Below, piece by piece: positions 27,546-56,638 of a stretch of 64,000 nt of DNA (the first letter of the stretch is position 1; every line of letters starts with the position of its first letter). The position numbers and the translations under genes are program-made. The stretch lies in IMG/VR virus record IMGVR_UViG_3300025133_000019; one strand, written 5' to 3'. The notes under the pieces were generated by a model. The model was not told the DNA's origin, did not search any database, and saw only the letters and a program-made list of their open reading frames with translations. The DNA comes from a virus. Lineage: Duplodnaviria; Heunggongvirae; Uroviricota; Caudoviricetes.

Positions 27546-27555
27546 TTTACAAAAT

Positions 27556-27641: not shown

Positions 27642-27690
27642 CTAATTCGAGTCTTTTATACTTCTTTTAAGTAGAACCTTACTAAGGAGT

Positions 27691-31503: not shown

Positions 31504-31507
31504 GAGA

Positions 31508-32506: not shown

Positions 32507-32532
32507 ACTCCAGTCACTTTGTTGTTGAGTTT

Positions 32533-32564
32533 TAAGGGCCATAAATTATGGCCCTTATTTTTTA
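32533..32564. terminator. bidirectional rho-independent terminator
   Basis: Palindrome AAGGGCCATAAATTATGGCCCTT plus ATTTTTT, between convergent genes. Confidence 0.65.
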
Positions 32565-33617: not shown

Positions 33618-33625
33618 AAAAATCC

Positions 33626-35070: not shown

Positions 35071-35250
35071 ATGAGTACAAAAGAAATAGACGGACAGACC
35101 TATGACACCGAAGATCTCGATTGTAATGGAAATCTTTATGTTGATGCTATTCCTTATTATACGCATCAGGAGATAGTAAACTGGTTCGACGGTTTAGTAA
35201 AAAAGGTGCAAGAGATTTCGCAAAGCAGTCCCAAGAATAATGGCAAGTAA
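35071..35250 (+). CDS. short DLDCNGNPY-family member
   Basis: MSTKEIDGQTYDTEDLDCNGNLYVDAIP. Confidence 0.4.
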   Translation: MSTKEIDGQTYDTEDLDCNGNLYVDAIPYYTHQEIVNWFDGLVKKVQEISQSSPKNNGK

Positions 35251-42458: not shown

Positions 42459-42713
42459 TTGGGGGACAAAACATATAACACCGAAGACCTGGATTGCCAC
42501 GGTAAACCTTATGACGATGCAGTAGCACTAGAGGATAAAGTAGAAGACCTAAGAGGATCACTAGAACACATGATTCTTTTGGACGATTGCTGGGGGTGGG
42601 ACGACTATAGCTATATGGTAAGATCGCCAGGAGTAGAATTATATGTTGGTTCTGAGGTGTCGTCTAAATACATTATGGGTTTTATCAACAAAACAGCAAA
42701 GGAAGTTGTATAA
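42459..42713 (+). CDS. DLDCNGNPY-family small protein (divergent)
   Basis: TEDLDCHGKPYDDAVAL. Confidence 0.5.
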   Translation: MGDKTYNTEDLDCHGKPYDDAVALEDKVEDLRGSLEHMILLDDCWGWDDYSYMVRSPGVELYVGSEVSSKYIMGFINKTAKEVV

Positions 42714-42865
42714 AAAATATGCCGAGGTCGTATAATTAGGAGAGGTTAACCTCTCAGGACACTATCTGGATTATAGAGGTGGCGGTGGGACCCCGTTCCT
42801 TGGCTCTAAAAAATAGGAAAACGTAGTAAACAGAAGTAAACGCTAGTAATAGCGACGTAATTCGG

Positions 42866-42951
42866 TGCAGGATAGAGAAGTCTGGTATCTCGGGTGTCTC
42901 ATAAGCACTTTACTTGTAGTGAGTACGAAGGTTCGAATCCTCCTCCTGCCT
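42866..42951 (+). tRNA. class II tRNA-like gene with a CAU anticodon (Met-type loop CTCATAA)
   Basis: D-arm GAGA/TCTC, anticodon stem GGTGT/GCACT, variable arm TACT-TGTAGTG-AGTA, T-arm GAAGG-TTCGAAT-CCTCC (one A-C mismatch), acceptor TGCAGGA/TCCTGCC (T-C at positions 1-72). Confidence 0.45.
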
Positions 42952-42954
42952 TAG

Positions 42955-42990
42955 AAAAACCCTGTGATAGACTCGTATCACAGGGTTTTT
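42955..42990. terminator. bidirectional rho-independent terminator
   Basis: AAAAA-CCCTGTGATA-GACTCG-TATCACAGGG-TTTTT. Confidence 0.7.
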
Positions 42991-43060
42991 CTCTTCCTAT
43001 AAGTTTGATAGTTATTTAGTAACCCGTTGGTTCGAATCCGGACCCTGCAAGGAATATTAA

Positions 43061-43912
43061 ATGACACAAGAAAGAGAGACTCTGGACGAGTACAAAGAAA
43101 ATCCCAATCACTGCGAAGAGTGCGCAAAACCCATACTTTTAGAAGAAACCTCTATTTATTACCTGAGAGCAACAAGATTTTGTAGTAATAAGTGTATAAG
43201 CGACTTTGTTTTAAAAGAAAACAGAGCTGGGAGCACCAATGGCGGGAGGGTCATGGCGATAAGATCACGCCAAGAAGCTTTATTTAAGTATTACGAGAAT
43301 CCTAAAGAATGCAAACACTGTGGCTCTGTTATTCAGGTTAAGGGGAATCAGAAACTGGGTGAGGTTAGGGCTAAGAAATTTTGCTGCAAATCTTGCGCAG
43401 CTAAATTTAATAATAGAGCTTATCCAAAAAGGAGGGGTATTTTTAGTGGCTTCTGTAGGGAATGCGGAGATTCTGTTTCTTACACGTATAATCTTAAAAG
43501 TAAAAGTTACAGCAAAAGAAAGTATTGTATAAAATGCCTCTCGGAAGTAAGATCTAAGTTGGCCCGAGCGAACCAGTCGGTGAGGTATTCTAAGCCTGAG
43601 TTACCTAAAAGAACCAAGGGAAGTCTGAAGGTTAACTCCAAATATTGGGTTCAATACAGGTCTAAAATACAGAAACATGCTAAACAATCTCTTTTAAAAG
43701 CAAACCTCCCAAAAGTTTGTGCTTATTGTGGATATTCCTTACATGTTGACACCTGCCACATTAAAGATGTAAAAGATTTTCCTGATACAGCTACAGTAGA
43801 GGAAATCAATTCCATGGATAATTTAGTTTACCTGTGCAAGAACCATCAGTGGGAGTTTGATAATGGGTATATAACCAAGGAAGATATTTCCCGAGATCTT
43901 GACACCCCTTAA
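43061..43912 (+). CDS. zinc-ribbon-rich HNH endonuclease
   Basis: Multiple CxxC pairs. C-terminal HNH motif DTCHIKD...NLVYLCKNHQWEFDNG. Confidence 0.6.
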   Translation: MTQERETLDEYKENPNHCEECAKPILLEETSIYYLRATRFCSNKCISDFVLKENRAGSTNGGRVMAIRSRQEALFKYYENPKECKHCGSVIQVKGNQKLGEVRAKKFCCKSCAAKFNNRAYPKRRGIFSGFCRECGDSVSYTYNLKSKSYSKRKYCIKCLSEVRSKLARANQSVRYSKPELPKRTKGSLKVNSKYWVQYRSKIQKHAKQSLLKANLPKVCAYCGYSLHVDTCHIKDVKDFPDTATVEEINSMDNLVYLCKNHQWEFDNGYITKEDISRDLDTP

Positions 43913-44381
43913 ATCCCTAGTTAAACTTATTGGTAACAAGGCGGAATTTATGAAACTCTGTAACGAAATTTTGGAGTCTGTATGGTTTCCAAGGGGCAAT
44001 GACTGGTTTATAAAAAATGGATTGCTAGGGATACCTCTTGATCTGATAGACAAAATAGAAGGTGACTACGAGGGACATATAGATTATTTGAAAATGGAGA
44101 TTGAGGGTAAAACCTTTGACGAGCACGGAAACCTTAGAAAGTGGCGCAAAGGCCCAGAAGGATTCCCTAGCGAGGAGACCTACGACGAACACGGAAACAT
44201 CACAAGGTATAGATCTTCTTTGGGCATGAATTATGACAAGGTTTATGATGAACACAGAAATCTAACATACTATAAAGACTATAATACCTCAGAAGAGTGG
44301 GAAAGAGACTATGACGAACTGGGGAATATCTTGGTTCACCGAGATTCTGATGGTAACTGTGATAACTATGAATACAAATAA
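43899..44381 (+). CDS. repeat protein (YDEHGN-type short repeats)
   Basis: DEHGNLRKW, YDEHGNITRY, YDEHRNLTYY, YDELGNILVH. Confidence 0.45.
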   Translation: MTPLKSLVKLIGNKAEFMKLCNEILESVWFPRGNDWFIKNGLLGIPLDLIDKIEGDYEGHIDYLKMEIEGKTFDEHGNLRKWRKGPEGFPSEETYDEHGNITRYRSSLGMNYDKVYDEHRNLTYYKDYNTSEEWERDYDELGNILVHRDSDGNCDNYEYK

Positions 44382-44488
44382 ACTGAGAAAAACAAGGATA
44401 GCTAACTTCTACATAAAACAAAGAGATAACTTTGAAAATTCCGGAGTTTAGTTTACAATAGAAATAACAGTAAATTTTAGGAGGACAC

Positions 44489-45313
44489 ATGAGTCACTTT
44501 GTATTATTAGTAGTAGGCGATAATATAGACAAACAATTAGAGCCTTATAACCAAGATGTTAGCGGAACAGAACCGTGGGCTGAATTCTTAGATCAAAGAG
44601 CAGATCCGGATACCCAAGAAGACTATAAATCAGGGTCTGCCCAATTTTATTATTGTTCGTTACGTGAGAAATGGATTTCCAAATACCGCCTTGCAGATGA
44701 ACGTATACCCAAAGATTCGGTTACTTTAGAAGAAAAGTTTTATAGAGATGTAATGACTTTTACTGAATATTTGGAAAATTGGTGTGGGTTTTCCTTTCAC
44801 GAAAACCTGGATACGTATGGTTACCACAGAAATCCTAATGCTCAATGGGATTGGTACGAAGTAGGAGGAAGATGGGACGGAACTTTACTTTTGAAGGAGG
44901 GTTTAAAAGGAACCCTTGGAGTGGTAGGAAGACACGGAAGAGATGAGAACCTTACGGAACGTCGTACATCTATAGCAAGAGTAGGAGACGTGGATTGGGC
45001 GGGAATGGCTCAAGAAGGGCTAGATCAAGGCGAGAAATCTTGGAGTGAAGCAGCCGGGGAAGATCCGGGAACACGTTATTTTAGGTATGGGATAGACCAA
45101 GACGATACCAAAGAATCTTACCTAAAAAAATGCTCTGGCCCTTCGTTTTTCGCTTACCTAAAAGATGGAAAATGGTTTAGCAAAGGTGACATGGGCTGGT
45201 TTGGAATCAGTTATAATGAGTGCGATCCTGATGTATGGAGAGGTGACTTAACAGGGATGCTAGAATCTTTAGACCCTGATACCACAATCACAGTAGTAGA
45301 TTGTCATATATAA
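44489..45313 (+). CDS. hypothetical protein
   Basis: 274-aa ORF with a strong SD (AGGAGG) and a WDWYEVGGRW motif. Confidence 0.55.
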   Translation: MSHFVLLVVGDNIDKQLEPYNQDVSGTEPWAEFLDQRADPDTQEDYKSGSAQFYYCSLREKWISKYRLADERIPKDSVTLEEKFYRDVMTFTEYLENWCGFSFHENLDTYGYHRNPNAQWDWYEVGGRWDGTLLLKEGLKGTLGVVGRHGRDENLTERRTSIARVGDVDWAGMAQEGLDQGEKSWSEAAGEDPGTRYFRYGIDQDDTKESYLKKCSGPSFFAYLKDGKWFSKGDMGWFGISYNECDPDVWRGDLTGMLESLDPDTTITVVDCHI

Positions 45314-45329
45314 CGGAAGAAAAAAGGTT

Positions 45330-45614
45330 TTGATAACACAAGGAGATATGATGAGTACACAAAAGTTAAAAGAACTAGAACAACTAGAACCAAGATTAAT
45401 AGAGTTGATAAATCAAGTTGGAGCTGGACGAGCCATGAAGCTAGCGCAGCAACAATGGAAGAAGCTTTTGGAGACTTACGGAGGGGAACTTTCGATAGGC
45501 CCTTGTGTGTCTATGCTAGTTCCTTGTGAATGTGAAGTGAGTCCCTATAATTGTGACTGGTGCTGTGGTTCACAACAGGTGACCAGAAAAGTCAAGGAAG
45601 CCAAAAGCAAATAA
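45330..45614 (+). CDS. hypothetical small Cys-rich protein
   Basis: 94-aa ORF with SD AAGGAG. Confidence 0.4.
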   Translation: MITQGDMMSTQKLKELEQLEPRLIELINQVGAGRAMKLAQQQWKKLLETYGGELSIGPCVSMLVPCECEVSPYNCDWCCGSQQVTRKVKEAKSK

Positions 45615-45676
45615 ACCGGGATTACAAAGAGTTAAATTCTTGTTAATACAAAGAAACCGGGATTAAGAAAGGTATT

Positions 45677-46054
45677 ATGCAAAGAAAAGTAATATTAGCA
45701 GAACAGCCTAAGGACTCTATTAATATAAATGATCCAGAAATAGATTACCGTTTACTAGTAGCCTTTCGAACCGGAGAGTACCCCACTTTTTTCACGTTTT
45801 CCTTTGGTGGTTATGAAGAAGAGGAGTGGCATTGGATTGCCACTAGTTTTGAGGGTAACTCTACAGGATTCCCTAGTCTACCAGACAAAAAATCGGAGAA
45901 CGGAGGATTAAAGGAAGCTGTCAGAACAGTGACTGAAGAAGACCCTGAGGATTGGGAAGTTGTTCTTTATGATACCATGGAACTAAAGCACCAAGCGCTA
46001 ATAGAGTTTATACAATCCAAAGGACCTTACATTATAAAACTTTTCTCGGAGTAA
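45677..46054 (+). CDS. small acidic protein, full-length member of 'family E'
   Basis: Homologous fragments lie at 48147-48300 (N-terminal) and 50033-50268 (C-terminal). Confidence 0.5.
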   Translation: MQRKVILAEQPKDSININDPEIDYRLLVAFRTGEYPTFFTFSFGGYEEEEWHWIATSFEGNSTGFPSLPDKKSENGGLKEAVRTVTEEDPEDWEVVLYDTMELKHQALIEFIQSKGPYIIKLFSE

Positions 46055-46056
46055 CT

Positions 46057-46377
46057 ATGGAATATAATCTAGAAGACCTAGACTGCAACGGAAATCCTTA
46101 TGCTGATGCTATACCGCTAGGAGAGCAGGCCAGTAAAGTTTCTGGTTTTAATAAACCTGTTCACTGGCCTTTTATGCCTGTAATAGGGGAGCGAATTATA
46201 ATAGAATCTGTGAGAGGCCGTTATTCCGAAGAAGTTGTTAAAATAGACTTGGTTAATGAATGGATTCATACTACTCATGAACCTCACAGACATTGGACTT
46301 TTTGTTCTCGTTCGTGGAGTCCTGATAATAGGTTTTCTAGAGACACTTATCAACTCGGAGTAATGGTAAGACCGTGA
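46057..46377 (+). CDS. DLDCNGNPY-family small protein
   Basis: EDLDCNGNPYADAIPLG...KPVHWPFMPVIGERIIIE. Confidence 0.6.
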   Translation: MEYNLEDLDCNGNPYADAIPLGEQASKVSGFNKPVHWPFMPVIGERIIIESVRGRYSEEVVKIDLVNEWIHTTHEPHRHWTFCSRSWSPDNRFSRDTYQLGVMVRP

Positions 46378-47036
46378 GAACAGAGATAGACTTTACACTT
46401 CAAAAGCAGTCAATTCTAGGGGAGTCTCCTTTGGACCCCAATCTTATGTTAGCTGCTAGCAAAGATAGCAAGTTTGTATGGGTGTTCGCACAACCAGGAC
46501 CCAAAAGTTCTATTGTAGCTGAGAAGTTATCCACAACTTTAGAGGTATTGGAATCTGTTTGTCTAGAAGATAAGTATGAAATGCAAGAAATGTTGAAAAT
46601 TTCTCATAAAGAACTTACCATATTGCAATATTCGTTATACCCTATGAAACGTAACGCACTAAAGGATTTTGGAGAGAACAGGGAAGTAAGTGCTCGGTGC
46701 AGCGAACAGGTGCTTGTCAGACGCTCAGATGTCTTATACCATGATGATCCAAGCATAAATCCCTGTAGAGTTCTTATTTATACCAGAGAACTTGCTCCGT
46801 GTACACTTAAATTACCTGGAGCAGAATCTTTAAATTCTCAGGTTCATTTAGTTGACATAAATGGAAATTTGAATTCTCGTATGTATTGGGTGGGGTTTAA
46901 AGAAGAAGGAAGGTTGTCAACTTATTCTTTTTTAGATATACTGGCTGGAATAGGTTATATTAGAAAAGCCTATTTGTATAGTTCTCAAAAAAATATGAAC
47001 AAAGAGATAAAAGTTATAAAACAGGAGTTGAAGTGA
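46374..47036 (+). CDS. hypothetical protein
   Basis: 220-aa ORF. Confidence 0.5.
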   Translation: MRTEIDFTLQKQSILGESPLDPNLMLAASKDSKFVWVFAQPGPKSSIVAEKLSTTLEVLESVCLEDKYEMQEMLKISHKELTILQYSLYPMKRNALKDFGENREVSARCSEQVLVRRSDVLYHDDPSINPCRVLIYTRELAPCTLKLPGAESLNSQVHLVDINGNLNSRMYWVGFKEEGRLSTYSFLDILAGIGYIRKAYLYSSQKNMNKEIKVIKQELK

Positions 47037-47356
47037 GAGATCAAAAGTATAAACTAGAAGACCTGGATTGCAATGGTAACCCTTATCCAGATGCTATACC
47101 ACTGGGCTTGAGTTGTAGAGTTAAACCAGCTCATTGGCCTTTTGTTCCTGGGGAGAGGATTATAATAGAAGTTCCAGATTATAGGAACATAATTAATTAT
47201 TTCTCCGAAGAGGTTATTAAAGTTGATTTATCGCAAATGCGTGTATACACCACTTATGGTGATACTGGAAATTATTGGGGATATACTTTGGATTATTGGG
47301 GTATAGGATATAAATTCTCAAAAGATACAGGACAACCAGGAGTAACAAAGAGATGA
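47033..47356 (+). CDS. DLDCNGNPY-family small protein
   Basis: EDLDCNGNPYPDAIPLG...KPAHWPFVPGERIIIE. Its C-terminal 20 aa are identical to those of the next gene. Confidence 0.6.
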   Translation: MRDQKYKLEDLDCNGNPYPDAIPLGLSCRVKPAHWPFVPGERIIIEVPDYRNIINYFSEEVIKVDLSQMRVYTTYGDTGNYWGYTLDYWGIGYKFSKDTGQPGVTKR

Positions 47357-47688
47357 AATTAGAATATAAACTGGAAGACTTAGACGCTAACGGAACTCCT
47401 TATAGCGATGCGGTTCCTATTGGATCAGAACCTGTAGCTTCAGGGCAAAAACCTGCTCATTGGCCTTTTGTTCCTGTTCCTGGGGAGAGAATTGTAATAG
47501 AACTTCCTAGGAGTTCTGGAACCCTTTATTACTCGGAAGAAGTTGTTAGGGTTGATTTATCACTGAATCATTATAGTGTATATACTACTTATAATCCAGA
47601 AAGTTATTGGGATTATAGCTTGACTTATTGGGGTATAGGATATAAATTCTCAAAAGATACAGGACAACCAGGAGTAACAAAGAGATGA
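47353..47688 (+). CDS. DLDCNGNPY-family small protein
   Basis: EDLDANGTPYSDAVPIG...KPAHWPFVPVPGERIVIE. Confidence 0.6.
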   Translation: MKLEYKLEDLDANGTPYSDAVPIGSEPVASGQKPAHWPFVPVPGERIVIELPRSSGTLYYSEEVVRVDLSLNHYSVYTTYNPESYWDYSLTYWGIGYKFSKDTGQPGVTKR

Positions 47689-47697
47689 AACTAGTAG

Positions 47698-47853
47698 ATA
47701 TGACTAGTGATGATATAAAGTACAATCCAGAAGACTTAGATTGCCTTATAAAGATGCTGTACCTATTTTTATGACATGGCCTTTAAAAGTGGTTATAGGG
47801 GATATAATTGTGAATCCTAAGGGAATAGCTAGTATAAAATTGGAGGGAGAAGA
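47698..47853 (+). pseudogene. decayed DLDCNGNPY-family copy (internal deletion and frameshift)
   Basis: Reads YNPEDLDC in one frame and PYKDAVPI in another. Confidence 0.4.
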
Positions 47854-48105
47854 ATGAGCGCAACTTTTTTAGGTATATACGGATACTTTCTTTCAAGCTT
47901 GTTTTTTATTTCAGTATGCGCTTTTTTTGACAAAAAGTGGCCCATAGAGTCCAGGAAGGACTTGGCGATTCTCACCTTAGCGGGTGGGATTGCCCTTTGT
48001 CTTTTGCCAATAACGTGTATTCCTGGGATTAGCGATGAAACCTTTTCATTCCAGGAATCAGTTGAATATTGGGTTTATGAATTTCCGTGGGAACAAGAAA
48101 GTTGA
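47854..48105 (+). CDS. small membrane protein, YWFxEYP-family
   Basis: Two TM helices and a C-terminal EYWVYEFPW. Confidence 0.5.
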   Translation: MSATFLGIYGYFLSSLFFISVCAFFDKKWPIESRKDLAILTLAGGIALCLLPITCIPGISDETFSFQESVEYWVYEFPWEQES

Positions 48106-48146
48106 CTCGTACTGGTTACTGTGCCATAATACAAATAAGGAGTAAT

Positions 48147-48300
48147 AATGCCTAGAAAAATATTTTTTCCAGAAACACCTGATAATTCTGTTAGTATAGA
48201 GAGTCCAGAGATGGACTTTAGACTAATAGTAGCGTATCGTAGGGGAAAGTTCCCCACTTTTAACACTGTTGTTTATAGTGGGTTCACAACAGCTAACTAA
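48147..48300 (+). CDS. family E N-terminal fragment (51 aa)
   Basis: SD AAGGAG. Sequence PEMDFRLIVAYRRGKFPTF is homologous to the N-terminus of the 45677 gene. Confidence 0.4.
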
Positions 48301-50030
48301 AAATCTTGATATTTACAGACAAATCCTGTAAAATCAATTTCAATTGAAACACCTGACAATTTAATTATATAAATCGCTTTAAACATTCAAATGAATAAAG
48401 ATCTAACACTAACCCTAGAATCCAAGATCCCAAATCTTGGAGACACATATCAAAAACTGGAGTCATACTCCAGTTTTTACGGTCATCTGGAAAGAATTCT
48501 TTTTCAAATTCTAGTAAAAACCCCTGTAATTGATTCTGAGTTCAGAAAAAACTTGAAAAAAAAGTTTCACTCGTAAATATAATATTCAAGCAAGAATTTT
48601 TAATGCGCTTTGGATTCAAGTTAAAGGTAAATTAGATTCTTTTAAAGAGAGCAAGAAAAGGGAAGAAAAACAACTAAAATCTAAAATAAAAAATTTAAAA
48701 TCTGGCATCAAAAAAGTTAGTAAAGAGCTTGATAACAAGAAAAGAAAACATGGTAAAGGATTCATTAAGCTAAAACCTCATGAAATTAAGCTCAAAAGAC
48801 AAAAGCTTCATTTCCAGAACTCAAAACTAAACAAACTAGAAAATTTTGTTAAAAACAAGAATCTAACATTTGGCGGTTATTCCTTTTTCTTAAAACAGTA
48901 TACTAACCCGGAATATATAGAAAATCATGATTCCTGGTTAACCGAGTGGAAAAGACGGAGAAACAACCACTTTTACTTCATAGGAAGTAAAGACGAGGTC
49001 AGCCAAAATCAACATTCCCAATATAATTTAGATGAAACTGGATTAGAAACACTTAGATTAACTCTTCCTTATCACGTAGAAAAAGAGTTAGGAAAACATC
49101 TTGTTATCCCGGTTAAATTCAGTTCTCACCTGGAAAAGAAAAACGAAAGATACTACAATTACTTTCAGGAAGCAAGAAATCAAAAAGTAGCTTTAAGTTA
49201 TAATTTTTTAAAAAGAGAAAACGGAGTTTGGTATGTTCAAGTAACTTTTAGTATAAAAAAGAAAGTTTATGAAAATAAAAATGGATTTATAGGAATAGAT
49301 TTAAACTACGATCTCATAGCTACTGCTAGTAGCAATAGCTCCGGGAATTACGTTGGATTTAAAAACTACAATTTTAATTCAGAAAACAAAACTGCTGGTC
49401 AAACCAAAAATGAACTTTCCCTTATAATTAACGAAATAGTTAAACTAGCAAAACAAGAGAGCCGGGGAATAGTTATAGAAAAACTGGATTTCAGTAATTT
49501 GAAATTAAAACCGAGATCCAAAACTACTAACAGGAAATTAAACCTGATTCAATATTCAGTTTTCAGAGTTTTATTGGAATCTAGATGCCTAAAACAAGGT
49601 GTACAATTAAAGTTAGTGAATCCAGCTTACACCTCGGTCATAGGAAAATATAAATATGCTAAAAGGTATGGGATAAATTCTCATACCTCAGCAGCATTAG
49701 TAATAGCCCGAAGGGGCTTTTACTCGGCTAAAGAGAGATTACCTGTTCAGTTGACCGATATCCTCCGCAGAGGAGAAGAACAAAAATTTGAAAAAATTTT
49801 TAGATATCGACACCACTGGAGCGCTTGGAATTATCTCTCTAAAAATCTTGAAAAATGTTTGAAGTATGTTATAATGATATACGGAGATTCTTTTAATACT
49901 GGAAATAATTTTAGAATTACGGAAGGAATTAACATGAACTATCTAACCTCAAGATTTAATCCTGAGAAGAAGTCGTTCCTTCTTAGGTATCACGGATTTT
50001 CTGCGAATCAGGAAACGCCATGATTTTTTT
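48301..50030 (+). mobile_element. TnpB-like insertion element, copy 3 (approximate), splitting a family E gene
   Basis: Flanked by the N- and C-terminal family E fragments. The TnpB stop lies within ~8 nt of the right boundary. Confidence 0.5.
48391..50023 (+). pseudogene. divergent TnpB-like protein lacking the zinc finger, frameshifted in an A8 run (48555-48562)
   Basis: Frame 1 runs 48391-48576 and frame 2 runs 48557-50023 with no ATG. RuvC-I IGIDLNYDLIA; RuvC-II IVIEKLD; VNPAYTSVIG without Cys; RuvC-III-like INSHTSAALVIARRG with the Asp replaced. Confidence 0.55.
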
Positions 50031-50032
50031 GA

Positions 50033-50268
50033 ACGGTTTGGTTTACGCCTGATTTTAAGAGTTGTTCTGACGGTTTCAATGAGCAGGAGTACTATGAACA
50101 CAGCTCCGAATCAACGGGCAGAGAAGGTTTAAAAGAGACTATTCAACATCTTACCAGAATAGACCCTAGTGAATGGGAAGTCGTGTTACACGACAATTTA
50201 GTAGAGAAGTACGAAACTATGTTGAAATTTATAAAAGACCATAATTTATCAGTAAATTCAAATCATTA
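50033..50268 (+). pseudogene. family E C-terminal remnant without a start codon
   Basis: EWEVVLHDNLVEKYETMLKFIKDHN aligns with DWEVVLYDTMELKHQALIEFIQSKG of the 45677 gene. Confidence 0.4.
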
Positions 50269-50279
50269 AGGGAGATGTA

Positions 50280-50576
50280 ATGTTGGAGGAAGTTTACAAT
50301 TTAGTAAAAGAAAATCGTATTGATGCAGCTATAGATGTAGCCTTTGAAGGTGTAGATAACTTATGTTCTGCTGAAGACTTTGGAGAAGTAGATAAAGTTT
50401 TAAAAAGTTTGGACCTAGTTAAACTAGATATAAATTTAACTGTCGCTTTTTTATCTATAACTCTAGCAGCAAAAGACGAGTTAAAATACAGAGAAACCTT
50501 TTACGAAAGATGCCGAGAAAGACTGTTAGTTTTATGTCCGGAAAGGTTAGATAAGGTTTTGGGTGGATTGAGGTAA
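50280..50576 (+). CDS. hypothetical protein
   Basis: 98-aa ORF. Confidence 0.4.
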   Translation: MLEEVYNLVKENRIDAAIDVAFEGVDNLCSAEDFGEVDKVLKSLDLVKLDINLTVAFLSITLAAKDELKYRETFYERCRERLLVLCPERLDKVLGGLR

Positions 50577-50854
50577 TGGATATTATAATTACTATTTTGG
50601 GTTGGTATCTTTTTGGCCATTTGATAATAGGATTTTTGACTTTGCTCTCGGTGCTTTTCTTAAATGCGGACGGCGGTTTTGGTGCAAAGGAATTTTCTTG
50701 CGTTTTCGGGACCTGCGTTATATTAGGGCCTATTTCTACTATACTTACTACTCTAGCTATTCTTGATGAAGAGGGTTTGCTCACTAGACAGTTTAAAGTA
50801 GCTTTAAATTATTGGTTTTTTAGGTTACCTAAAAAATATTTGTTTAGAGGTTGA
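50576..50854 (+). CDS. small membrane protein, YWFxEYP-family
   Basis: TM helices and a C-terminal NYWFFRLPKKY. Confidence 0.5.
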   Translation: MDIIITILGWYLFGHLIIGFLTLLSVLFLNADGGFGAKEFSCVFGTCVILGPISTILTTLAILDEEGLLTRQFKVALNYWFFRLPKKYLFRG

Positions 50855-50867
50855 AGAAGGAGTTTTA

Positions 50868-51236
50868 ATGGGCAATCATCCAAGTTTTGTTTTATATTAC
50901 GGAGTTACAGCAGGGGAATTAGTTTCTGAATACGACAGTGACTTAGAAGAAATAGTATTCGAGTTTGACGGGAAACCAGTCGTGTATGATGAGGGGAATG
51001 GAACAGGTTTACCAGAGGAATTATCCGATTTATGTATTACCTGTCCTATAAGGTTTTGTGATGATCCTGGTGAAGAAACAGTTGTTGGATTCAGGGTATT
51101 TGGAGTTGACGGGTCTTGTGAATTAGTTAGTGATGTCACTATAGATCAAGAAAAATTAATGGAGTTTGAAGAGCTGTTTAGTAGGATTAACACAGAGCTT
51201 AGCCCTAGGCTTATTGGGATGGTGGATGTGTCATGA
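50868..51236 (+). CDS. acidic hypothetical protein
   Basis: 122-aa ORF. Confidence 0.4.
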   Translation: MGNHPSFVLYYGVTAGELVSEYDSDLEEIVFEFDGKPVVYDEGNGTGLPEELSDLCITCPIRFCDDPGEETVVGFRVFGVDGSCELVSDVTIDQEKLMEFEELFSRINTELSPRLIGMVDVS

Positions 51237-51442
51237 GTAGAGGCATCCCAACAAAGATGACACTACGAGAGTTTATTATCAAAATAATGACTAAATATCC
51301 TGATTACTTAGAGGATGAATTAAGCTTCAGTACTTATGTAAAGAACGGTGATTCAGTTGACTCGGAGTTCAGAGAAATAAGTGAGTGTGGAATGGGATTT
51401 TGCACTATTGTTTTAGATCAGAAAGAAGAAGAGGAAGAGTGA
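51233..51442 (+). CDS. hypothetical small protein
   Basis: 69-aa ORF with overlapping start and stop. Confidence 0.35.
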   Translation: MSRGIPTKMTLREFIIKIMTKYPDYLEDELSFSTYVKNGDSVDSEFREISECGMGFCTIVLDQKEEEEE

Positions 51443-51766
51443 GTGGGAATCTATAACGAGTTTTCTGTTATAATAGGGGTTTGTTCTGGTGAAGTCATTC
51501 AAGAGACAAAAACTGTGCTAACAGTTTTTGGGAATAAAGTTGAGTACCCCGAAGATTATTTAGAAGAAAAAGGATTAGAGGCAGTCACTTCTTATAACGG
51601 GGAGTATCTTTATGTGGGCCACATGATTAAAAGGCTAACTGAAGAGGACTCTGGAACATTAACCAGAGATGAATTAGATGAAGTTTTTTCATTAGCTCAA
51701 TCTAAATTCGAGTCAGAAGGATACACCGGGCCACTGCGATTGATATATTGTTGGGAGCAGCATTAA
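51443..51766 (+). CDS. hypothetical protein
   Basis: 107-aa ORF. Confidence 0.4.
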   Translation: MGIYNEFSVIIGVCSGEVIQETKTVLTVFGNKVEYPEDYLEEKGLEAVTSYNGEYLYVGHMIKRLTEEDSGTLTRDELDEVFSLAQSKFESEGYTGPLRLIYCWEQH

Positions 51767-51787
51767 TTTGAGGGTATAGTTTAGGTT

Positions 51788-52009
51788 GTGAGCATAAAAG
51801 TTATAGACGGCAAAGAATATCACATCGAAGATTTAGATCCCTACGGAAATCCCTATGAAAATATGTTACCAACAGAAGAAAGCACCGCTGAGTCCATGAG
51901 CTACATGATATCCGATAATATAGTAACTAACTTTTATACCGGAGAAAAGTGGTTTTTAACCAAAAAAGATGATGTTTATAGTTACATTAGTGAAAAGAAT
52001 CTGGTTTAG
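51788..52009 (+). CDS. divergent DLDCNGNPY-family member
   Basis: IEDLDPYGNPYENMLP. Confidence 0.4.
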   Translation: MSIKVIDGKEYHIEDLDPYGNPYENMLPTEESTAESMSYMISDNIVTNFYTGEKWFLTKKDDVYSYISEKNLV

Positions 52010-52047
52010 TTTTAATACTTGGTTTAATACTTGGTTTAATACTAAAC
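52000..52047 (+). repeat. 12-nt tandem repeat (TTAATACTTGGT, ~3 copies)
   Basis: Direct repeats spanning a gene boundary. Confidence 0.7.
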
Positions 52048-52058
52048 AGGAGATCTTT

Positions 52059-52328
52059 ATGGAAACCTCAAGAAAAGTTGTAATAACAAATCGAAATAAA
52101 TTGGGAATAGATTCTGAATACCTAGACTTAACTTTATCCCTAGCCTTTAGTCCAGACCACCACTACAAAGAATTTTCTTGTGCCCACCACAATAACACTT
52201 TTTCAATATTTAGCTCAGAAGATGGCTCTTCTGTTGATATAGTAGGGGAAGAGGCTATATACAAAGAAATAAAAAATTACTTGACCAAAACTGGCTTATA
52301 CATCAATATGATACTAGAGGAGACCTAG
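52059..52328 (+). CDS. hypothetical protein
   Basis: SD AGGAG and ATG at 52059 (METSRKVV...). Confidence 0.4.
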   Translation: METSRKVVITNRNKLGIDSEYLDLTLSLAFSPDHHYKEFSCAHHNNTFSIFSSEDGSSVDIVGEEAIYKEIKNYLTKTGLYINMILEET

Positions 52329-52665
52329 TTAATACCCTAGATATCTTTGATGATACATATTATTCTAGTGTCCCTGATAAAGGAAAATTTAGGTCTATAA
52401 TAAATATTGGTTCCAAGGAAATTAGCTCCTACGGTGTTGGCAAGTTCGATCTTTGTCAGGTAGTATTATATACTTCTAAAGAGGCATTTTTGTTCTTTAA
52501 GGTTGAAAACAATTCTAGAGTAAGCTGGTACGTTGTGAACGGAACCGGGGCTTTTTCTGACGTTTTAGACAGGATATCTACTCAATTAGGAGATGTTCAA
52601 GAAATTGTTCAGTATAGCGATCATCATAAAAAGTATAAGGAGCTTGCTAACTTTTTAAAGTAGGT

Positions 52666-53040
52666 TTGATGGATATGGAAGAGAAAAAATACAGCCCATG
52701 TGACCTAGACGTTAACGGGAATCCCTATTCCGATGCTATACCACTAGGGGACCAAGAGTTTTCAGCCGAAGAGGATTTTGCTAAAGCGAAAGCAACTACG
52801 GTATCCATATATAAACCAGCTCATTGGCCTTTTATTCCTTCGCCAGGAGAAACTATTGTTATTCAAAGCAGCAGTTCAATGTCTAGTGCAGTAGAGAAAG
52901 TAGTTAAAGTAGATTTAGCTGGAGAGCGTATCTTCACTACTTATACTGGGGTATTGTCATGGCTTTTCGATACCAGATTTTGGAACTCTGGGTTCCAATT
53001 CTCCAGGTATTCCGGCCAAAAAAATATATTAGTAAGGTAA
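52666..53040 (+). CDS. DLDCNGNPY-family small protein
   Basis: CDLDVNGNPYSDAIPLG...KPAHWPFIPSPGETIVIQ. Confidence 0.6.
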   Translation: MMDMEEKKYSPCDLDVNGNPYSDAIPLGDQEFSAEEDFAKAKATTVSIYKPAHWPFIPSPGETIVIQSSSSMSSAVEKVVKVDLAGERIFTTYTGVLSWLFDTRFWNSGFQFSRYSGQKNILVR

Positions 53041-53041
53041 T

Positions 53042-53329
53042 ATGCTGAGTCCTATAGTATCGGTCTTAGAACTATTTCTCGCAGCACATACTGTACTAGG
53101 TCTGCTAGGATTTTTAACAGGCATCTTGGCAGGCAGAGACTATGCACTATCTAGGTCCTTGTTTCAAACGTTCTATCTGTGCATGTTTTTAGGTCCTTTA
53201 GCATTCTTTATTTTCCTCCAGTCGGATAAAAATACTGGCTATAGAGATACTATTTGTGATACTATTAAAGCAGGGCTAGATAAAGTAAGGTATTGGCCTC
53301 TCCAAGAAAAAGTAGAGCTTTATGTCTGA
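53042..53329 (+). CDS. small membrane protein
   Basis: Two or three TM helices. Confidence 0.45.
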   Translation: MLSPIVSVLELFLAAHTVLGLLGFLTGILAGRDYALSRSLFQTFYLCMFLGPLAFFIFLQSDKNTGYRDTICDTIKAGLDKVRYWPLQEKVELYV

Positions 53330-53621
53330 ACATATTTTTTATTATATAGGAAGCTTTGTTACCTATTATTCAATGTTTTCTTTACTAACCGGATTTCTTT
53401 ATGTTTTTTGGGAAGGCCCTTATTTGAAGATACTAGGGAGTATAGAGGAACTGGTTATGAGAATGGTTCTCTGGCCTGTGGCATGGATCACCGCTGTTAT
53501 AAGCATATTCCGGCACGGAATAACTCTTGATTCAGTTAAAATAGTTTTTTCATTCTGGTTTTTGACTGTGCATGAAGCAATCACGGCAAAGAGCAAAAGT
53601 GTTCAAAAAGATAAGAAGTAA
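53322..53621 (+). CDS. small membrane protein
   Basis: TM helices and a C-terminal FSFWFLTVHE. Confidence 0.45.
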   Translation: MSEHIFYYIGSFVTYYSMFSLLTGFLYVFWEGPYLKILGSIEELVMRMVLWPVAWITAVISIFRHGITLDSVKIVFSFWFLTVHEAITAKSKSVQKDKK

Positions 53622-53696
53622 ATTTAAAGAGTTTAAATTCTGGTTATCAGAGTTATTCTTTGATATAATTTACTACCGTTTTAATAAGTAGGTGTA

Positions 53697-53999
53697 ATGA
53701 TTGATACAGCGATTTGGTGGGTAGGAGTTCTCGGGATTCTCCATTTCACAACAGGATTTCTATTGTATGGCGTTATTCTTTTTCTGGATAAGCACACAAT
53801 CTTTTCCCATACCATAGGACACCACTTGCTAGCCTTTGTTGGCTCTGTTCTATTGGGGTTCTTCTGCGTACTCGTTATAGCGGAGCATGTGGTCGAATCC
53901 GAAGAACCCTTAAAAGTTCATTTACAAAAAAGCTTTAAATTCTGGTTTTCAGAGTTCCCTAAGTATTTTATTATGAGGATAAAAGAAAAATGGCTGTAG
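53697..53999 (+). CDS. small membrane protein, YWFxEYP-family
   Basis: C-terminal SFKFWFSEFPKYF. Confidence 0.5.
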   Translation: MIDTAIWWVGVLGILHFTTGFLLYGVILFLDKHTIFSHTIGHHLLAFVGSVLLGFFCVLVIAEHVVESEEPLKVHLQKSFKFWFSEFPKYFIMRIKEKWL

Positions 54000-54226
54000 A
54001 AACCCTATTAATAGCGTGGGGATACGTACTTTCAGGGGTGTTTTCTGTTATCATAATTTATTTCCTCTCCGAAGGTTTCCCAGAAACGAGTAGTTTCGAG
54101 TGGTCAGTTTGTTTTGTGTTGGGTCCTTTTATATTAGCGTTATTTTTTGGATTCTTGGTTTTTGAGCACAGCAACTGTAAACAAGCCTTTGATTACTGGT
54201 TTTATGAGTATCCTATTCATGTTTAG
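53990..54226 (+). CDS. small membrane protein, YWFxEYP-family
   Basis: C-terminal FDYWFYEYPIHV. Confidence 0.5.
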   Translation: MAVETLLIAWGYVLSGVFSVIIIYFLSEGFPETSSFEWSVCFVLGPFILALFFGFLVFEHSNCKQAFDYWFYEYPIHV

Positions 54227-54232
54227 AAAGGT

Positions 54233-54514
54233 ATGATTATGTTAATATATTCTTTGGCAGGAATTGCGGTGTGGATACTGAGCCTGATTTTGTGTAACGA
54301 CGAAGATCTTGATACCCCCTTTTTATGGTTAAGTCCTGGATGGTTTTTTACGGTAGTGGTGTTCTGGCCTATTCATATATTAATGGTTTCTATAGAATTT
54401 ATTAAGAAAAAGTATTACCTTGTTCCCAAGGAAGTTTTGGGGTATCATTGGAAGTCTGCTAATCTTTTTATTACTAGGTTTATTAGGGATATCAAGAGTA
54501 TTTTAGTGTCTTAG
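54233..54514 (+). CDS. small membrane protein
   Basis: Two TM helices. Confidence 0.45.
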   Translation: MIMLIYSLAGIAVWILSLILCNDEDLDTPFLWLSPGWFFTVVVFWPIHILMVSIEFIKKKYYLVPKEVLGYHWKSANLFITRFIRDIKSILVS

Positions 54515-54524
54515 AGAGAAAAAA

Positions 54525-54875
54525 ATGAAAGAGATAGAGGTAAATGGGGAACGCTATAGTCCAGAAGACTTAGATTGCAACGGTAATCCTTACTCGGATG
54601 CGAGACCAGCTAACCAAAGCTCTGTTCTTTCTACTCCCAACTCCCACTGGCCTTTCACGCCAGCTCCGGGTGATATAATCACGATAAGCTCTTATAACAA
54701 TCCAGCCACGTTTGCTGAAGAGGTTTTATCGGTGGATACAGCTAGGTTTGAAATACAGCCCTCAAGGTTTTTAGGGACCTCTAGTTACTGGTGCTTTTGT
54801 TTGACATGCTGGACTAATGGTAGCACTTTTGAAAAGTATGACCCTAACAGTGGGGTAAGAGTTTTAAAATCTTAG
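54525..54875 (+). CDS. DLDCNGNPY-family small protein
   Basis: EDLDCNGNPYSDARP...NSHWPFTPAPGDIITIS. Confidence 0.6.
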   Translation: MKEIEVNGERYSPEDLDCNGNPYSDARPANQSSVLSTPNSHWPFTPAPGDIITISSYNNPATFAEEVLSVDTARFEIQPSRFLGTSSYWCFCLTCWTNGSTFEKYDPNSGVRVLKS

Positions 54876-54883
54876 GAAAAGCT

Positions 54884-55333
54884 ATGGAAATTATTTGTAA
54901 ATTCTGTGTCTCTAGTGATTTACATTGTGCGGTATGCAATAACAAGGGAACTGTTTTACTGCATAAGTTATCAGAACCTTTATCTCTACGGACTATTCTT
55001 GATAATTATGAGCTAGTCCATTTTTTAGATATTGACAAAGAGTATAATGTTAAGTGTGGAAAACCGTGTTCTGAATGCGGAGGAAGTGGTACTACTTTTG
55101 AGAACAGTGGTCTTGGTATAACTGAAGAAAAATGTTTTAGCTGCGGTGGCTACGGATCAGTCGCTATGGAGTTAGGAAATCTTGAAATCGTGTGCGTTGA
55201 GAAGAGACTTCGAAAAACAATAATGGGTCTCTTAGACGAGCTTCAGCACACTCCTTTGGACAGACCAGAAGACAGGTGCAAGCTAAAATTAAAGGTTGAT
55301 TTGTTGGGTGAGATAATGGAGAGCTTTCATTAA
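54884..55333 (+). CDS. DnaJ-type zinc-finger (CxxCxGxG, two copies) small protein
   Basis: CSECGGSG and CFSCGGYG, plus an N-terminal CKFC...CAVC. Confidence 0.5.
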   Translation: MEIICKFCVSSDLHCAVCNNKGTVLLHKLSEPLSLRTILDNYELVHFLDIDKEYNVKCGKPCSECGGSGTTFENSGLGITEEKCFSCGGYGSVAMELGNLEIVCVEKRLRKTIMGLLDELQHTPLDRPEDRCKLKLKVDLLGEIMESFH

Positions 55334-55573
55334 ATGGAATACCTAGGGATTACGAGTTTAGTATTAGTTTCCTGTATATTCCCCAGATTCTCTCTTTTGT
55401 TTTTGGGTCCTGGCGTAGGTATTCTTAGTTTTTTTAGTTTGCTTGTCCTGCCTTATACTACGGTAGCTATAACTGTCAGTCTGGTTTCGTGGTTAAATCA
55501 TCCTGCGATAGTTATAATGTTTTGGACTTTAGCTGTAGCAGAAATTTTAACTCTTCTAGAACTTTTAGATTGA
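55334..55573 (+). CDS. small membrane protein
   Basis: Three hydrophobic helices. Confidence 0.4.
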   Translation: MEYLGITSLVLVSCIFPRFSLLFLGPGVGILSFFSLLVLPYTTVAITVSLVSWLNHPAIVIMFWTLAVAEILTLLELLD

Positions 55574-55615: not shown

Positions 55616-56638
55616 ATGAGTGGATTCCGAAAATTTAATTCTATAAAAGAAGTTGTCCTCCAAAAATACCTTGATCGAGTCTACAGAGAAGGTTATGGAG
55701 ACGAGGTTTTTGTGGTTCTCGAAAAATACCACGGAGCCAACTTCGGTGTAATTGTAGACGACCAAGGGGTCAGGTGTCAATCCAGAGAGCTGTTGTTGGA
55801 AGAGGATGCCAGCTTCTATGATTACGAGCACATACTAGAAAGAGACCGTGAAAAATTCAAACAGGTATTCGATTTCTTTAAATCTTCTTTTCAAGGAGTA
55901 AACTCTATAATTTTATACGGGGAATTAGTAGGCGGGGTCTATGACCATCCCGAGTATAACAAAAAAATAAGGGACAACATAATTCAGCACGAAGTCCACT
56001 ATGCTCCTGACACGGATTGTGTATTCTTTGACATTTTTATTAGAGGGGATAGAGAACACTATCTAAATCACCTTGACGTAGTTACTATGATAAATTCTTA
56101 TGAGCTTAAATACTCAGAAGTTCTGTTTGAGGGAAGTCTTAAGGATTGCTTGGAATTCTCAGCTAAAACTAATGGAGACCCTTCTCTTGGGTTCAAGAAG
56201 TGGGGTTTACCCGAGATAGCTGACAACATCAGAGAGGGTAATGTAATAAAACCATTGAAATCCCTATTTTTCAAAGACGGTAGAAGGATCATTTTTAAGG
56301 ATAAAAATGATAAATTCAGAGAGACCTTGGCAAGAAAGAAGCCGGATCTGGGGGCCACTGAGAGATCAAAGGAAGCCAGAGAACTGATAAAGGACTTTGT
56401 CACGGAAGCTAGGCTCAAAAGTGTTTTAAGCAAGCATTCCAGGTTTAGTCAAAAGGATTTTGGAAAGCTAATGGGACTTTATATGAAAGACGTGATTGAA
56501 GATTTTAGAGATCATTATCCCGATGTTTTTTCTGATACCTCTAAAAAAGAAAGAAGCTCTATCACAAAACATGCTACAGGGTTAGCACAGCGTCTTATAA
56601 TGAGCAGTTTTGCAAAAATTGTAGACGGAACTTACTAA
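55616..56638 (+). CDS. Rnl2-family ATP-dependent RNA ligase
   Basis: Motif I EKYHGANFG (KxHGxN) and motif III ILYGELVGG. About 340 aa, matching the T4 Rnl2 layout. Confidence 0.8.
   Translation: MSGFRKFNSIKEVVLQKYLDRVYREGYGDEVFVVLEKYHGANFGVIVDDQGVRCQSRELLLEEDASFYDYEHILERDREKFKQVFDFFKSSFQGVNSIILYGELVGGVYDHPEYNKKIRDNIIQHEVHYAPDTDCVFFDIFIRGDREHYLNHLDVVTMINSYELKYSEVLFEGSLKDCLEFSAKTNGDPSLGFKKWGLPEIADNIREGNVIKPLKSLFFKDGRRIIFKDKNDKFRETLARKKPDLGATERSKEARELIKDFVTEARLKSVLSKHSRFSQKDFGKLMGLYMKDVIEDFRDHYPDVFSDTSKKERSSITKHATGLAQRLIMSSFAKIVDGTY

What the first reader, a model, noticed from the sequence alone, without database searches (positions are those of the whole stretch)
42459..55573. Accessory island of at least 9 'DLDCNGNPY' small-protein paralogs interleaved with a second family of small membrane proteins ending in YWFxEYP
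Genes at 42459, 46057, 47033, 47353, 51788, 52666 and 54525 share a conserved N-terminal half: (Y/K)x(E/C)DLDCNGNPY(S/A)DA(I/V)PLG, a variable linker, then KPAHWPF(V/I)PxPGE(R/T)IxIE and EEVVKVDL. A decayed copy lies at 47698 and an outlier at 35071. Their C-terminal ~50 aa are unrelated. Between them sit 7 or more small 2-3-TM proteins (47854, 50576, 53042, 53322, 53697, 53990, 54233, 55334), several ending in aromatic-W-F-x-E-(F/Y)-P. Repeated soluble-plus-membrane pairings with variable tails resemble effector/immunity or injected-protein/partner arrangements. Alternatively the conserved head could be a capsid-targeting or propeptide region, like the T4 internal proteins, fused to diversified payloads. 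I know of no described family with this N-terminal motif.
Basis: seen in the sequence. Interest (0 to 1): 0.8.

Follow-up and report, generated by a model that had tools for sequence, protein, structure and literature searches.

The report
Megaphage small proteins sharing one head
An uncultivated marine giant phage carries a dozen or more small acidic proteins that all begin with the same 28-residue folded "head", joined either to a tiny beta-barrel or to unrelated tails, next to an array of tiny two-pass membrane proteins; both families are real and undescribed, their function is unknown, and the suggested toxin/antidote pairing is not supported.

Summary
The core motif [DE]-L-D-x-x-G-x-P-Y occurs 8 times in the window, against 0.07 expected. 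Every copy is on the + strand at the N-terminus of an ORF, and there is also one frameshifted pseudogene.

The five long members are homologous over their whole length: head, then a 7-39 aa linker, then an SH3/Tudor-like beta-barrel. ORF 55334 is not part of the membrane family.

The family is confined to a few related marine megaphage contigs. It has 34 clusters among 1.84 billion representative proteins. It has no match in Pfam, PHROGs, NCBIfam, PADLOC, PDB, GenBank phages, IMG/VR or GTDB genomes.

Across relatives the head is attached to about 15 tail classes. It is twice as conserved as the barrel (62% against 30%) and is modelled with high confidence (pLDDT 87-94).

Seven 2-TM proteins form a real, divergent family. 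They are not paired 1:1 with head genes: there are six head genes in tandem without any TM gene, seven TM genes in tandem, and copy ratios of 12:7, at least 7:7, and 7:2. Effector/immunity pairing is therefore not supported.

My best reading is a fast-evolving accessory family in which the head is a portable docking module for one common partner. A capsid-targeting role stays open. Function is untested.

The parts
35071..35250 (+). Head-only gene (59 aa) outside the island, next to the HtrA-like protease genes
   Evidence: Motif at residue 15. The tail falls in no tail class shared with other members.
42459..42713 (+). Head gene (84 aa, TTG start) with a divergent or degenerate tail
   Evidence: The same gene is called in the near-identical contig L010.
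45677..46054 (+). 125-aa 'fam3' gene directly upstream of a head gene; third repeated family of the island
   Evidence: HMM hit E 1.5e-62. Homologues are L001 6905 and the split copy at 48148.
46057..46377 (+). Head + linker + SH3-like barrel gene (106 aa)
   Evidence: Barrel HMM E 1.2e-22.
47033..47356 (+). Head + barrel gene (107 aa, GTG start)
   Evidence: It is 67% identical to 47353, which points to a recent tandem duplicate.
47353..47688 (+). Head + barrel gene (111 aa, = P0001)
47685..47856 (+). Decayed head + barrel copy (pseudogene): 10-nt deletion in the motif and a truncated barrel
47854..48105 (+). 2-TM family member (83 aa), ends YWVYEFP
   Evidence: (marginal with the L001-only HMM).
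48148..50270 (+). fam3 gene split by a ~1.75-kb TnpB-related insertion (~48286-50032)
   Evidence: 5' piece E 1.1e-25; TIGR01766, 46 bits. The gene is intact in relative L001 6905-7285.
50576..50854 (+). 2-TM family member (92 aa)
   Evidence: E 4.7e-8 with the L001-only HMM.
51788..52009 (+). Head gene (73 aa, GTG start) with a short divergent tail
52675..53040 (+). Head + long linker + barrel gene (121 aa from the ATG; 124 aa from the TTG at 52666)
   Evidence: (P0004).
53042..53329 (+). 2-TM family member (95 aa), marginal
53322..53621 (+). 2-TM family member (99 aa)
   Evidence: E 6.5e-6.
53697..53999 (+). 2-TM family member (100 aa), has FWFSEFP
   Evidence: E 2.4e-8.
53990..54226 (+). 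2-TM family member (78 aa), ends YWFYEYPIHV
   Evidence: E 1.8e-3.
54233..54514 (+). 2-TM family member (93 aa). Its orthologues precede the last head+barrel gene in all three lineages.
   Evidence: BLASTP against L001 9295, E 1.3e-25. L022 821 is the orthologue in the third lineage.
54525..54875 (+). Head + barrel gene (116 aa, = P0005), with the full head including the N-terminal beta-hairpin
54884..55333 (+). CxxCxGxG zinc-finger protein (149 aa) that follows the head+barrel gene here and in L001
   Evidence: The link to the barrel rests only on the P0028 fusion and is weak.
55334..55573 (+). Separate 3-4-TM protein (79 aa), not part of the 2-TM family
   Evidence: Its orthologue is L001 10843 (E 7e-20).

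Best explanation
This is a lineage-specific, fast-evolving multigene family of small acidic cytoplasmic proteins from a clade of uncultivated marine megaphages.

The ancestral architecture has three parts:
- an N-terminal 'head' of about 28 residues, with consensus (V/I)E(V/I)(N/D)GKxYxxEDLDxNGxPYxDAxP;
- a flexible linker of 7-39 residues;
- a five-stranded SH3/Tudor/KOW-like beta-barrel.

Tandem duplication in hyperplastic regions has produced at least 12 copies per genome. In many copies the barrel has been replaced or truncated, while the head is kept under strong purifying selection.

Inferred mechanism: the head is an autonomous, portable docking module that plugs every family member into one common partner. 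That partner could be a phage or host protein or machine, and the contact may be metal-stabilised. The barrel or other tail supplies a variable second function. Each protein would therefore act as a tether or adaptor, or as cargo addressed to one place, during host takeover or counter-defence.

The 2-TM proteins are a second, independently expanding accessory family that shares the same hyperplastic region. They are not cognate partners of individual head genes.

Shown here: the architecture, selection pattern, copy number, taxonomic restriction, fold, and lack of pairing. Inferred: that the head docks to anything, and the identity of any partner.
For: - Reality of the motif: 8 copies against 0.07 expected, all N-terminal and all on the + strand. 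Synonymous sites vary and upstream DNA is not conserved.
- Whole-length homology of the five long members.
- A wider family of 18 head+linker+barrel proteins has invariant residues in both parts. Pairwise identity is 62% in the head and 30% in the barrel, and linkers run 7-39 aa.
- The head is attached to about 15 BLAST-separable tail classes in relatives. Some tail classes are conserved between lineages, for example the CDDxFCDC tail in L007 and L012, so the short forms are genes and not debris.
- AF2: head pLDDT is 88/94/87, with a beta-hairpin and a short helix; the linker scores 60 and the barrel 93-96. pTM is only 0.62, which fits two rigid modules on a flexible tether.
- The barrel also occurs without a head, in L007 1741 and in P0028, P0031 and P0033. 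The head occurs twice in P0040. The two are therefore separable modules.
- At least 12 intact copies lie in two loci of one phage type.
- The island is dispensable and plastic: it holds a pseudogene, a TnpB-related insertion that splits a gene, and large content differences between relatives.
Against: - No partner has been identified, and nothing here shows that the head binds anything.
- High pLDDT could also mean the head packs on its own barrel as a structural cap.
- The alignments are shallow (8-18 sequences, from a few genomes).
- Expression, timing and localisation are unknown. Promoter and terminator scans were no better than chance.
- The 'phage' assignment rests on gene content and contig size, not on structural genes. 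None lie in the window.
Confidence: 0.4

Rival explanations
1. Capsid-targeting model, analogous to the T4 internal proteins. The head directs a diversified set of small proteins into the prohead. They are then injected with the DNA to counter host defences, and a prohead protease may remove the head.
For: - A conserved N-terminal segment sits on otherwise unrelated small proteins encoded in a hyperplastic cluster. This is the pattern described for the T4 IP/CTS system (PMC9026906).
- A Glu is conserved just before DLD in most members.
- Megaphages are known to package many ejection proteins (titles and abstracts).
Against: - The head is 22-28 aa and is modelled as a folded hairpin-plus-loop. 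A T4 CTS is a 10-19 aa propeptide.
- The residue at P3 before the conserved Glu is K, N, S, H or D, not L or I. Two members have Cys in place of Glu.
- The most conserved residues (DLDxxGxPYxDAxP) lie after that Glu, so they would remain on the mature protein.
- The proteins are acidic, pI 4.3-5.7.
- P0040 carries a second, internal head.
- No structural or protease genes lie in the window.
Confidence: 0.17
2. The head is not a docking tag. It is an intramolecular structural element, for example a Ca2+-binding DxDxNG-type cap that stabilises very small proteins. On this view each paralogue acts alone as a diversified binder or decoy for host targets.
For: - D-L-D-x-N-G-x-P-Y-x-D resembles DxDxDG / EF-hand-like loops. 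Asp at position 1 and Gly at position 6 are invariant.
- The head is strongly acidic, net charge -2 to -6.
- Head and barrel are conserved together in 18 proteins.
Against: - Loop position 5 is freely variable (N, Y, L, T, H, G). Position 3 is S, M or K in distant members. Position 12 is Ala, with the acidic residue at position 11.
- The linker to the barrel varies from 7 to 39 aa. That is hard to reconcile with a fixed cap.
- The head persists on about 14 tails that have no barrel.
- No sequence match to any Ca-binding family.
Confidence: 0.2
3. Effector/immunity (or injected protein/partner) cassettes: each soluble head protein is paired with a cognate small membrane protein.
For: - Both families are interleaved in the window.
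- One adjacency, the 54233-type TM gene followed by the 54525-type head+barrel gene, is conserved in three lineages.
Against: - L009 has six head genes in tandem without TM genes. L019 has four head genes without a TM array. L001 has seven TM genes in tandem.
- Copy ratios are 12:7, at least 7:7, and 7:2.
- No toxin, immunity or defence family matches.
- Some head genes lie far from any TM-family gene (35071, 42459).
Confidence: 0.06
4. RiPP-like precursors: the head is a leader peptide recognised by a modifying enzyme, and the tails are variable core peptides.
For: - There are many paralogues with a conserved N-terminus and variable C-terminus.
- One tail class is Cys-rich (CDDxFCDC).
Against: - No radical-SAM, YcaO, LanM-type or peptidase/exporter genes were detected in the window or in the loci examined.
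- The dominant tail is a folded 70-aa barrel.
- Most tails are not rich in Cys, Ser or Thr.
Confidence: 0.02

Closest known systems
T4 internal proteins (IPI, IPII, IPIII) with the capsid targeting sequence (CTS)
   Same: A short conserved N-terminal segment is shared by otherwise divergent small proteins. The genes lie in a hypervariable accessory locus and evolve fast, presumably under an arms race (PMC9026906).
   Different: - A CTS is a 10-19 aa propeptide ending in a gp21 L/I-x-E site and is removed. Here the module is 22-28 aa, predicted folded, lacks that site, and is conserved mostly after the candidate Glu.
- The proteins here are acidic.
- One relative has an internal copy of the head.
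- There are no virion data.
Tethered adaptors such as SspB (substrate-binding domain, flexible linker, short conserved ClpX-docking peptide); from my own knowledge, not tested here
   Same: A constant short docking element is joined by a variable flexible linker to a small beta-rich binding domain. The module order is modular and separable.
   Different: - No sequence or demonstrated structural relationship.
- In SspB the docking peptide is C-terminal and unstructured.
- No partner is known here.
- SspB is single-copy, whereas this family has a dozen paralogues.
SH3-like small beta-barrels (KOW / L24 / L19 / Tudor / chromo)
Polymorphic toxin / immunity cassettes
   Same: A conserved N-terminus with variable C-termini, tandem arrays, and small neighbouring genes.
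   Different: There is no toxin domain, no one-to-one gene pairing and no secretion-related domain. The proteins are only 59-141 aa.
Small phage membrane proteins such as T4 Imm/Sp and class II holins (for the 2-TM family); comparison from my own knowledge
   Same: Size of 78-116 aa, two predicted TM helices, and location in an accessory region.
   Different: There is no sequence match to any Pfam or PHROG family. Tandem arrays of 2-7 divergent paralogues are not typical of holins or Imm.

Membership tests
T4-type capsid targeting sequence (CTS) proteins | N-terminal propeptide of 10-19 residues | tested here: inconclusive
   The conserved head is N-terminal in all 8 window genes but spans 22-28 residues. 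P0040 also has a second, internal copy.
T4-type capsid targeting sequence (CTS) proteins | Propeptide ends at a prohead-protease site (L/I-x-E for T4 gp21) | tested here: not met
   The residues before the conserved Glu are YKLE, YNLE, YSPE, YNTE, YHIE and YDTE, so P3 is not L or I. Two members have Cys in place of Glu. The specificity of this phage's own protease is unknown.
T4-type capsid targeting sequence (CTS) proteins | Proteins are present inside the virion and are processed | not testable with these tools
   The phage is uncultivated. No proteomics exist and no structural genes lie in the window.
Effector/immunity (polymorphic toxin-like) cassettes | Each effector gene is adjacent to its own cognate immunity gene | tested here: not met
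   Six head genes lie in tandem in L009 and four in L019 without TM genes. Seven TM genes lie in tandem in L001.
Effector/immunity (polymorphic toxin-like) cassettes | Copy numbers of the two families co-vary across related genomes | tested here: not met
   The head:TM ratio is about 12:7 (window phage), at least 7:7 (L001/L016 lineage) and 7:2 (L009/L022 lineage). The genomes are incomplete, so the counts are minimums.
Effector/immunity (polymorphic toxin-like) cassettes | C-terminal region is a recognisable toxin domain | tested here: not met
   No Pfam, NCBIfam or PADLOC hit. The dominant tail is an SH3-like barrel.
SH3-like small beta-barrel fold (KOW/Tudor/L24 class) | Five-stranded, highly bent antiparallel barrel of about 60 residues | tested here: met
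SH3-like small beta-barrel fold (KOW/Tudor/L24 class) | Sequence membership in a curated SH3/KOW/Tudor family | tested here: not met
   No Pfam hit at E<=1 apart from a chance bPH_9 match at 0.22. The PDB profile search gave nothing below E 1.4.
EF-hand-like / DxDxDG calcium-binding loop | Oxygen ligands at loop positions 1, 3 and 5, Gly at 6, and an acidic bidentate residue at 12 | tested here: inconclusive
   Position 1 (Asp) and position 6 (Gly) are invariant, and position 3 is mostly Asp. Position 5 is variable and position 12 is Ala, with Asp at position 11. No family match. Geometry could not be inspected.
RiPP precursor peptides | Leader-recognising modification enzyme encoded nearby | tested here: not met
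   No such domains were found among the annotated neighbours in the window or in loci L001, L007, L009 and L018-L020.
Holin / T4 Imm-type small membrane proteins (2-TM family) | Sequence match to a described holin or superinfection-exclusion family | tested here: not met
   No Pfam or PHROGs hit at E<=0.1, apart from one unknown-function PHROG at 0.04. No PADLOC hit.

The most novel reading that the evidence does not exclude
The 28-residue head is a new kind of portable address tag. It is a folded, acidic mini-domain that delivers a diversified repertoire of at least 12 small proteins per genome to one phage machine. The most interesting candidate is the prohead, so that the proteins would be injected with the DNA. 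This would be a megaphage counterpart of the T4 CTS/internal-protein system, built on an unrelated signal.
Probability: 0.17. Interest if true: 0.65.

Novelty: new variant of a known kind. Interest (0 to 1): 0.38.

Why it matters
If the head is a shared docking or address module, it gives an experimental handle on dark-matter genes of marine megaphages. It is a short, transferable tag, so its partner can be fished out. It could also be used to deliver cargo, as the T4 CTS has been. In addition, it defines a clean example of modular evolution in phage accessory regions: one constant module, and about 15 tails.

If it is only a structural cap, the finding is one more ORFan family. Either way, the toxin/antidote reading that made the first-stage score high is not supported.

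Tried and rejected
- Known-family searches of head proteins, barrel, 2-TM proteins and neighbouring ORFans gave nothing: Pfam, PHROGs, NCBIfam and PADLOC. PDB sequence profiles also gave nothing.
- No homologues in GenBank phages by tblastn, in IMG/VR or in GTDB genomes.
- The broad alignment A7 was too divergent for the search for related loci.
- DNA repeat or shared promoter as the cause of the conserved head: rejected. Synonymous sites vary and the upstream DNA is unrelated. Promoter and terminator scans were at chance level.
- Large multi-domain hits from the exhaustive search were dismissed as spurious. These were P0027 (Big_5/subtilase), P0036 (low complexity) and P0039 (KWG repeats).
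- Foldseek against viral predicted structures gave no hit below E 0.03. The afdb50 library was unavailable.
- A Rosetta-stone link between the barrel and the neighbouring CxxCxGxG zinc-finger protein through P0028: only the zinc-knuckle motif matches (E about 0.1). I kept this as a lead only.
- ORF 51969/52059 as a fourth fam3 copy: not supported by the HMM.
- YD/RHS-repeat, choline-binding-repeat and WW-domain resemblance of the head was considered by eye. No profile match supports any of them.

Full report
**Context**

The window looks like part of a very large uncultivated phage.
- It contains three tRNAs, T4-type RNA ligase 2 and Tpt1 and three PcfJ-like giant paralogues.
- It also contains DUF4116 repeat proteins, TnpB-type transposases, and a module of an AAA ATPase, an SPFH protein and HtrA-like proteases.
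- No structural genes lie in the window.
- Proteins identical to window ORFs occur on metagenomic contigs of 374,268 and 347,103 bp.
- Related loci come from marine JGI metagenomes.
- The closest GenBank phage match to its Rnl2 is only 32% identical.

Yes, for the most part.
- The core motif [DE][LIVM]D..G.[PLA][YFW] occurs 8 times in the six-frame translation. Every copy is on the + strand, 7-15 residues from an ORF start.
- 100 shuffles of the window gave a mean of 0.07 and a maximum of 1.
- A ninth copy at 47685-47856 is a pseudogene with a 10-nt deletion in the motif.
- A DNA alignment of the nine starts shows varying synonymous positions and unrelated upstream sequence. Selection therefore acts on the peptide, not on a DNA repeat or promoter.

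- 46057, 47033, 47353, 52666 and 54525 are homologous over their whole length, with 25 invariant columns. These include the C-terminal W..W..G..F motif.
- Only 35071, 42459 and 51788 share just the head.
- For the membrane proteins, an HMM built solely from a relative's seven 2-TM proteins retrieves five of the window's seven (E 1e-9 to 2e-3). The reciprocal model retrieves all seven of the relative's.
- The membrane family is recognised by (Y/H)xxxG in TM1, (W/G)P in TM2 and a C-terminal aromatic FW patch.
- 55334 belongs to a different family.

**How widespread is the soluble family?**

It is extremely restricted.
- A word-seeded search of 5.8 billion proteins found 9 proteins.
- A head-only profile found 10 small proteins.
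- An exhaustive HMMER search of 1.84 billion cluster representatives found 34 clusters at E<=1e-3 and 16 at E<=1e-10. Several of the weakest are spurious.
- There are no hits in Pfam, PHROGs, NCBIfam, PADLOC or PDB sequences.
- There are also none in GenBank phages, IMG/VR or GTDB genomes.

**Architecture**

- Eighteen proteins share head + linker + barrel. The invariant residues are Y, D, G, P and D in the head, WP..P..G at the barrel entry, and W..F at the end.
- Mean pairwise identity is 62% in the head against 30% in the barrel. Among the window paralogues it is 78% against 43%. Linker length ranges from 7 to 39 residues.
- AF2 with a 12-sequence alignment gives pLDDT 88.7 for the product of 54525. 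The head scores 88/94/87 and has a beta-hairpin (residues 4-6 and 9-11) and a short helix. The linker scores 60 and the barrel 93-96. pTM is only 0.62.
- The modules are separable. The barrel occurs without a head in L007 1741 and in P0028, P0031 and P0033. P0040 has two heads, one of them internal.
- Clustering the tails of 47 non-redundant head proteins gives 16 BLAST classes, about 15 if the two CDDxFCDC tails are merged. The largest class, with 23 members, is the barrel.
- The proteins have no predicted TM segment in their sequences and are acidic, pI 4.3-5.7. Net head charge is -2 to -6.

**Genomic behaviour**

- The island lies between conserved Metallophos/DUF5984 genes and Rnl2. Its content differs greatly between relatives.
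- It contains a pseudogene and a 1.75-kb TnpB-related insertion that splits a gene which is intact in a relative. It is therefore dispensable and plastic.
- A second locus of the same phage type (L019, on a 347,103-bp contig) holds four further head genes. This gives at least 12 intact copies per genome.

**Are the soluble and membrane families paired?**

They are not.
- L009 has six head genes in tandem with no TM gene.
- L019 has four head genes without a TM array.
- L001 has seven TM genes in tandem.
- Minimum head:TM counts are about 12:7, at least 7:7, and 7:2 in three lineages.
- The only adjacency conserved in all three lineages is the 54233-type TM gene followed by the 54525-type head+barrel gene.
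- No tail or TM protein matches a toxin, immunity or defence model.

**Interpretation**

The pattern is a small, highly conserved, confidently folded module on a flexible tether of variable length, kept while its partner domain is swapped or lost, in a dozen copies per genome. That is what one expects of a portable docking or address module that connects diverse payloads to one common partner.

I commit to that reading at a confidence of about 0.4. The docking itself and the partner are inferred, not shown.

The T4 CTS/internal-protein system (PMC9026906) is the nearest described precedent. It stays open as a special case, at about 0.17. Five points count against membership:
- the length of the head;
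- its predicted fold;
- the missing L/I-x-E context;
- the fact that conservation lies mostly downstream of the candidate Glu;
- the internal head in P0040.

A metal-binding structural cap is the main alternative, at about 0.2. The DxDxNG-like loop is only partly canonical. RiPP precursors and effector/immunity cassettes are unlikely.

**Verdict**

Both families are real, undescribed and narrowly distributed, and the soluble family has a neat modular architecture. Function is unknown, and the most exciting first-stage interpretation is not supported. Interest is moderate at 0.38. I rate novelty as a new variant of a known kind: a conserved N-terminal module on diversified small phage proteins.

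Noticed in passing
window 48148-50270: A ~1.75-kb insertion (~48286-50032) splits a 125-aa 'fam3' gene that is intact in relative L001 (6905-7285). The inserted ORF is itself frameshifted (48391-48576, then 48599-50023). It matches the TnpB-related domain TIGR01766 at 46 bits and has no Pfam hit.
   Followed up: partly
window 45677-46054; 48148-48300 plus ~50033-50270; L001 6905-7285: A third repeated family of about 125 aa, with the motif SVESPExDYRLIVAYRRGxFP, sits directly upstream of head genes. It has no family match.
   Followed up: partly
window 4212-5694 and 10479-11780 (-): Two more transposase-type elements: a split phrog_506 transposase, and an intact IS605-type TnpB (OrfB_IS605 plus Cas12f1-like TNB). 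That makes three such elements in 64 kb.
   Followed up: no
window 12750-22585: Three consecutive giant paralogues of 1118, 1272 and 895 aa, each with a PcfJ-like domain near residue 190-275. The rest of each protein is unannotated.
   Followed up: no
window 36641-42217 (-): Three DUF4116-repeat genes of 690, 1002 and 170 aa on the opposite strand. The two large ones share a conserved non-repeat C-terminal region. Alpha-solenoid repeats like these could be peptide binders.
   Followed up: no
window 30034-34876: A module of an AAA ATPase, an SPFH/Band-7 protein and two HtrA-like trypsin-PDZ proteases lies next to head gene 35071. The same module occurs in relative L009.
   Followed up: no
window 22595-23218, 29198-29911, 55616-56638, 61344-62120: An RNA-repair-type gene set: an RNA-ligase-like protein (phrog_24030), an R2K ATP-grasp protein, T4-type Rnl2 and Tpt1/KptA. 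Relatives add Thg1, RNase T, an IF-1-like protein, NADAR and Macro domains.
   Followed up: no
window 43899-44381; L001 3114-6837: A short YD/RHS-repeat-like protein (160 aa) lies at the edge of the island. In relative L001 it is expanded to three genes of 383-497 aa that share an N-terminal domain.
   Followed up: no
window 54884-55333; L001 10354-10800; P0028: A protein with DnaJ-type CxxCxGxG zinc knuckles always follows the last head+barrel gene. The metagenomic protein P0028 has such a knuckle fused to two headless barrels. Similarity is limited to the knuckle (E about 0.1).
   Followed up: partly
window 27458-27642 and 42865-42952: Two adjacent tRNA-Ser genes (anticodons TGA and GCT), and a tRNA-Met located at the start of the island.
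   Followed up: no
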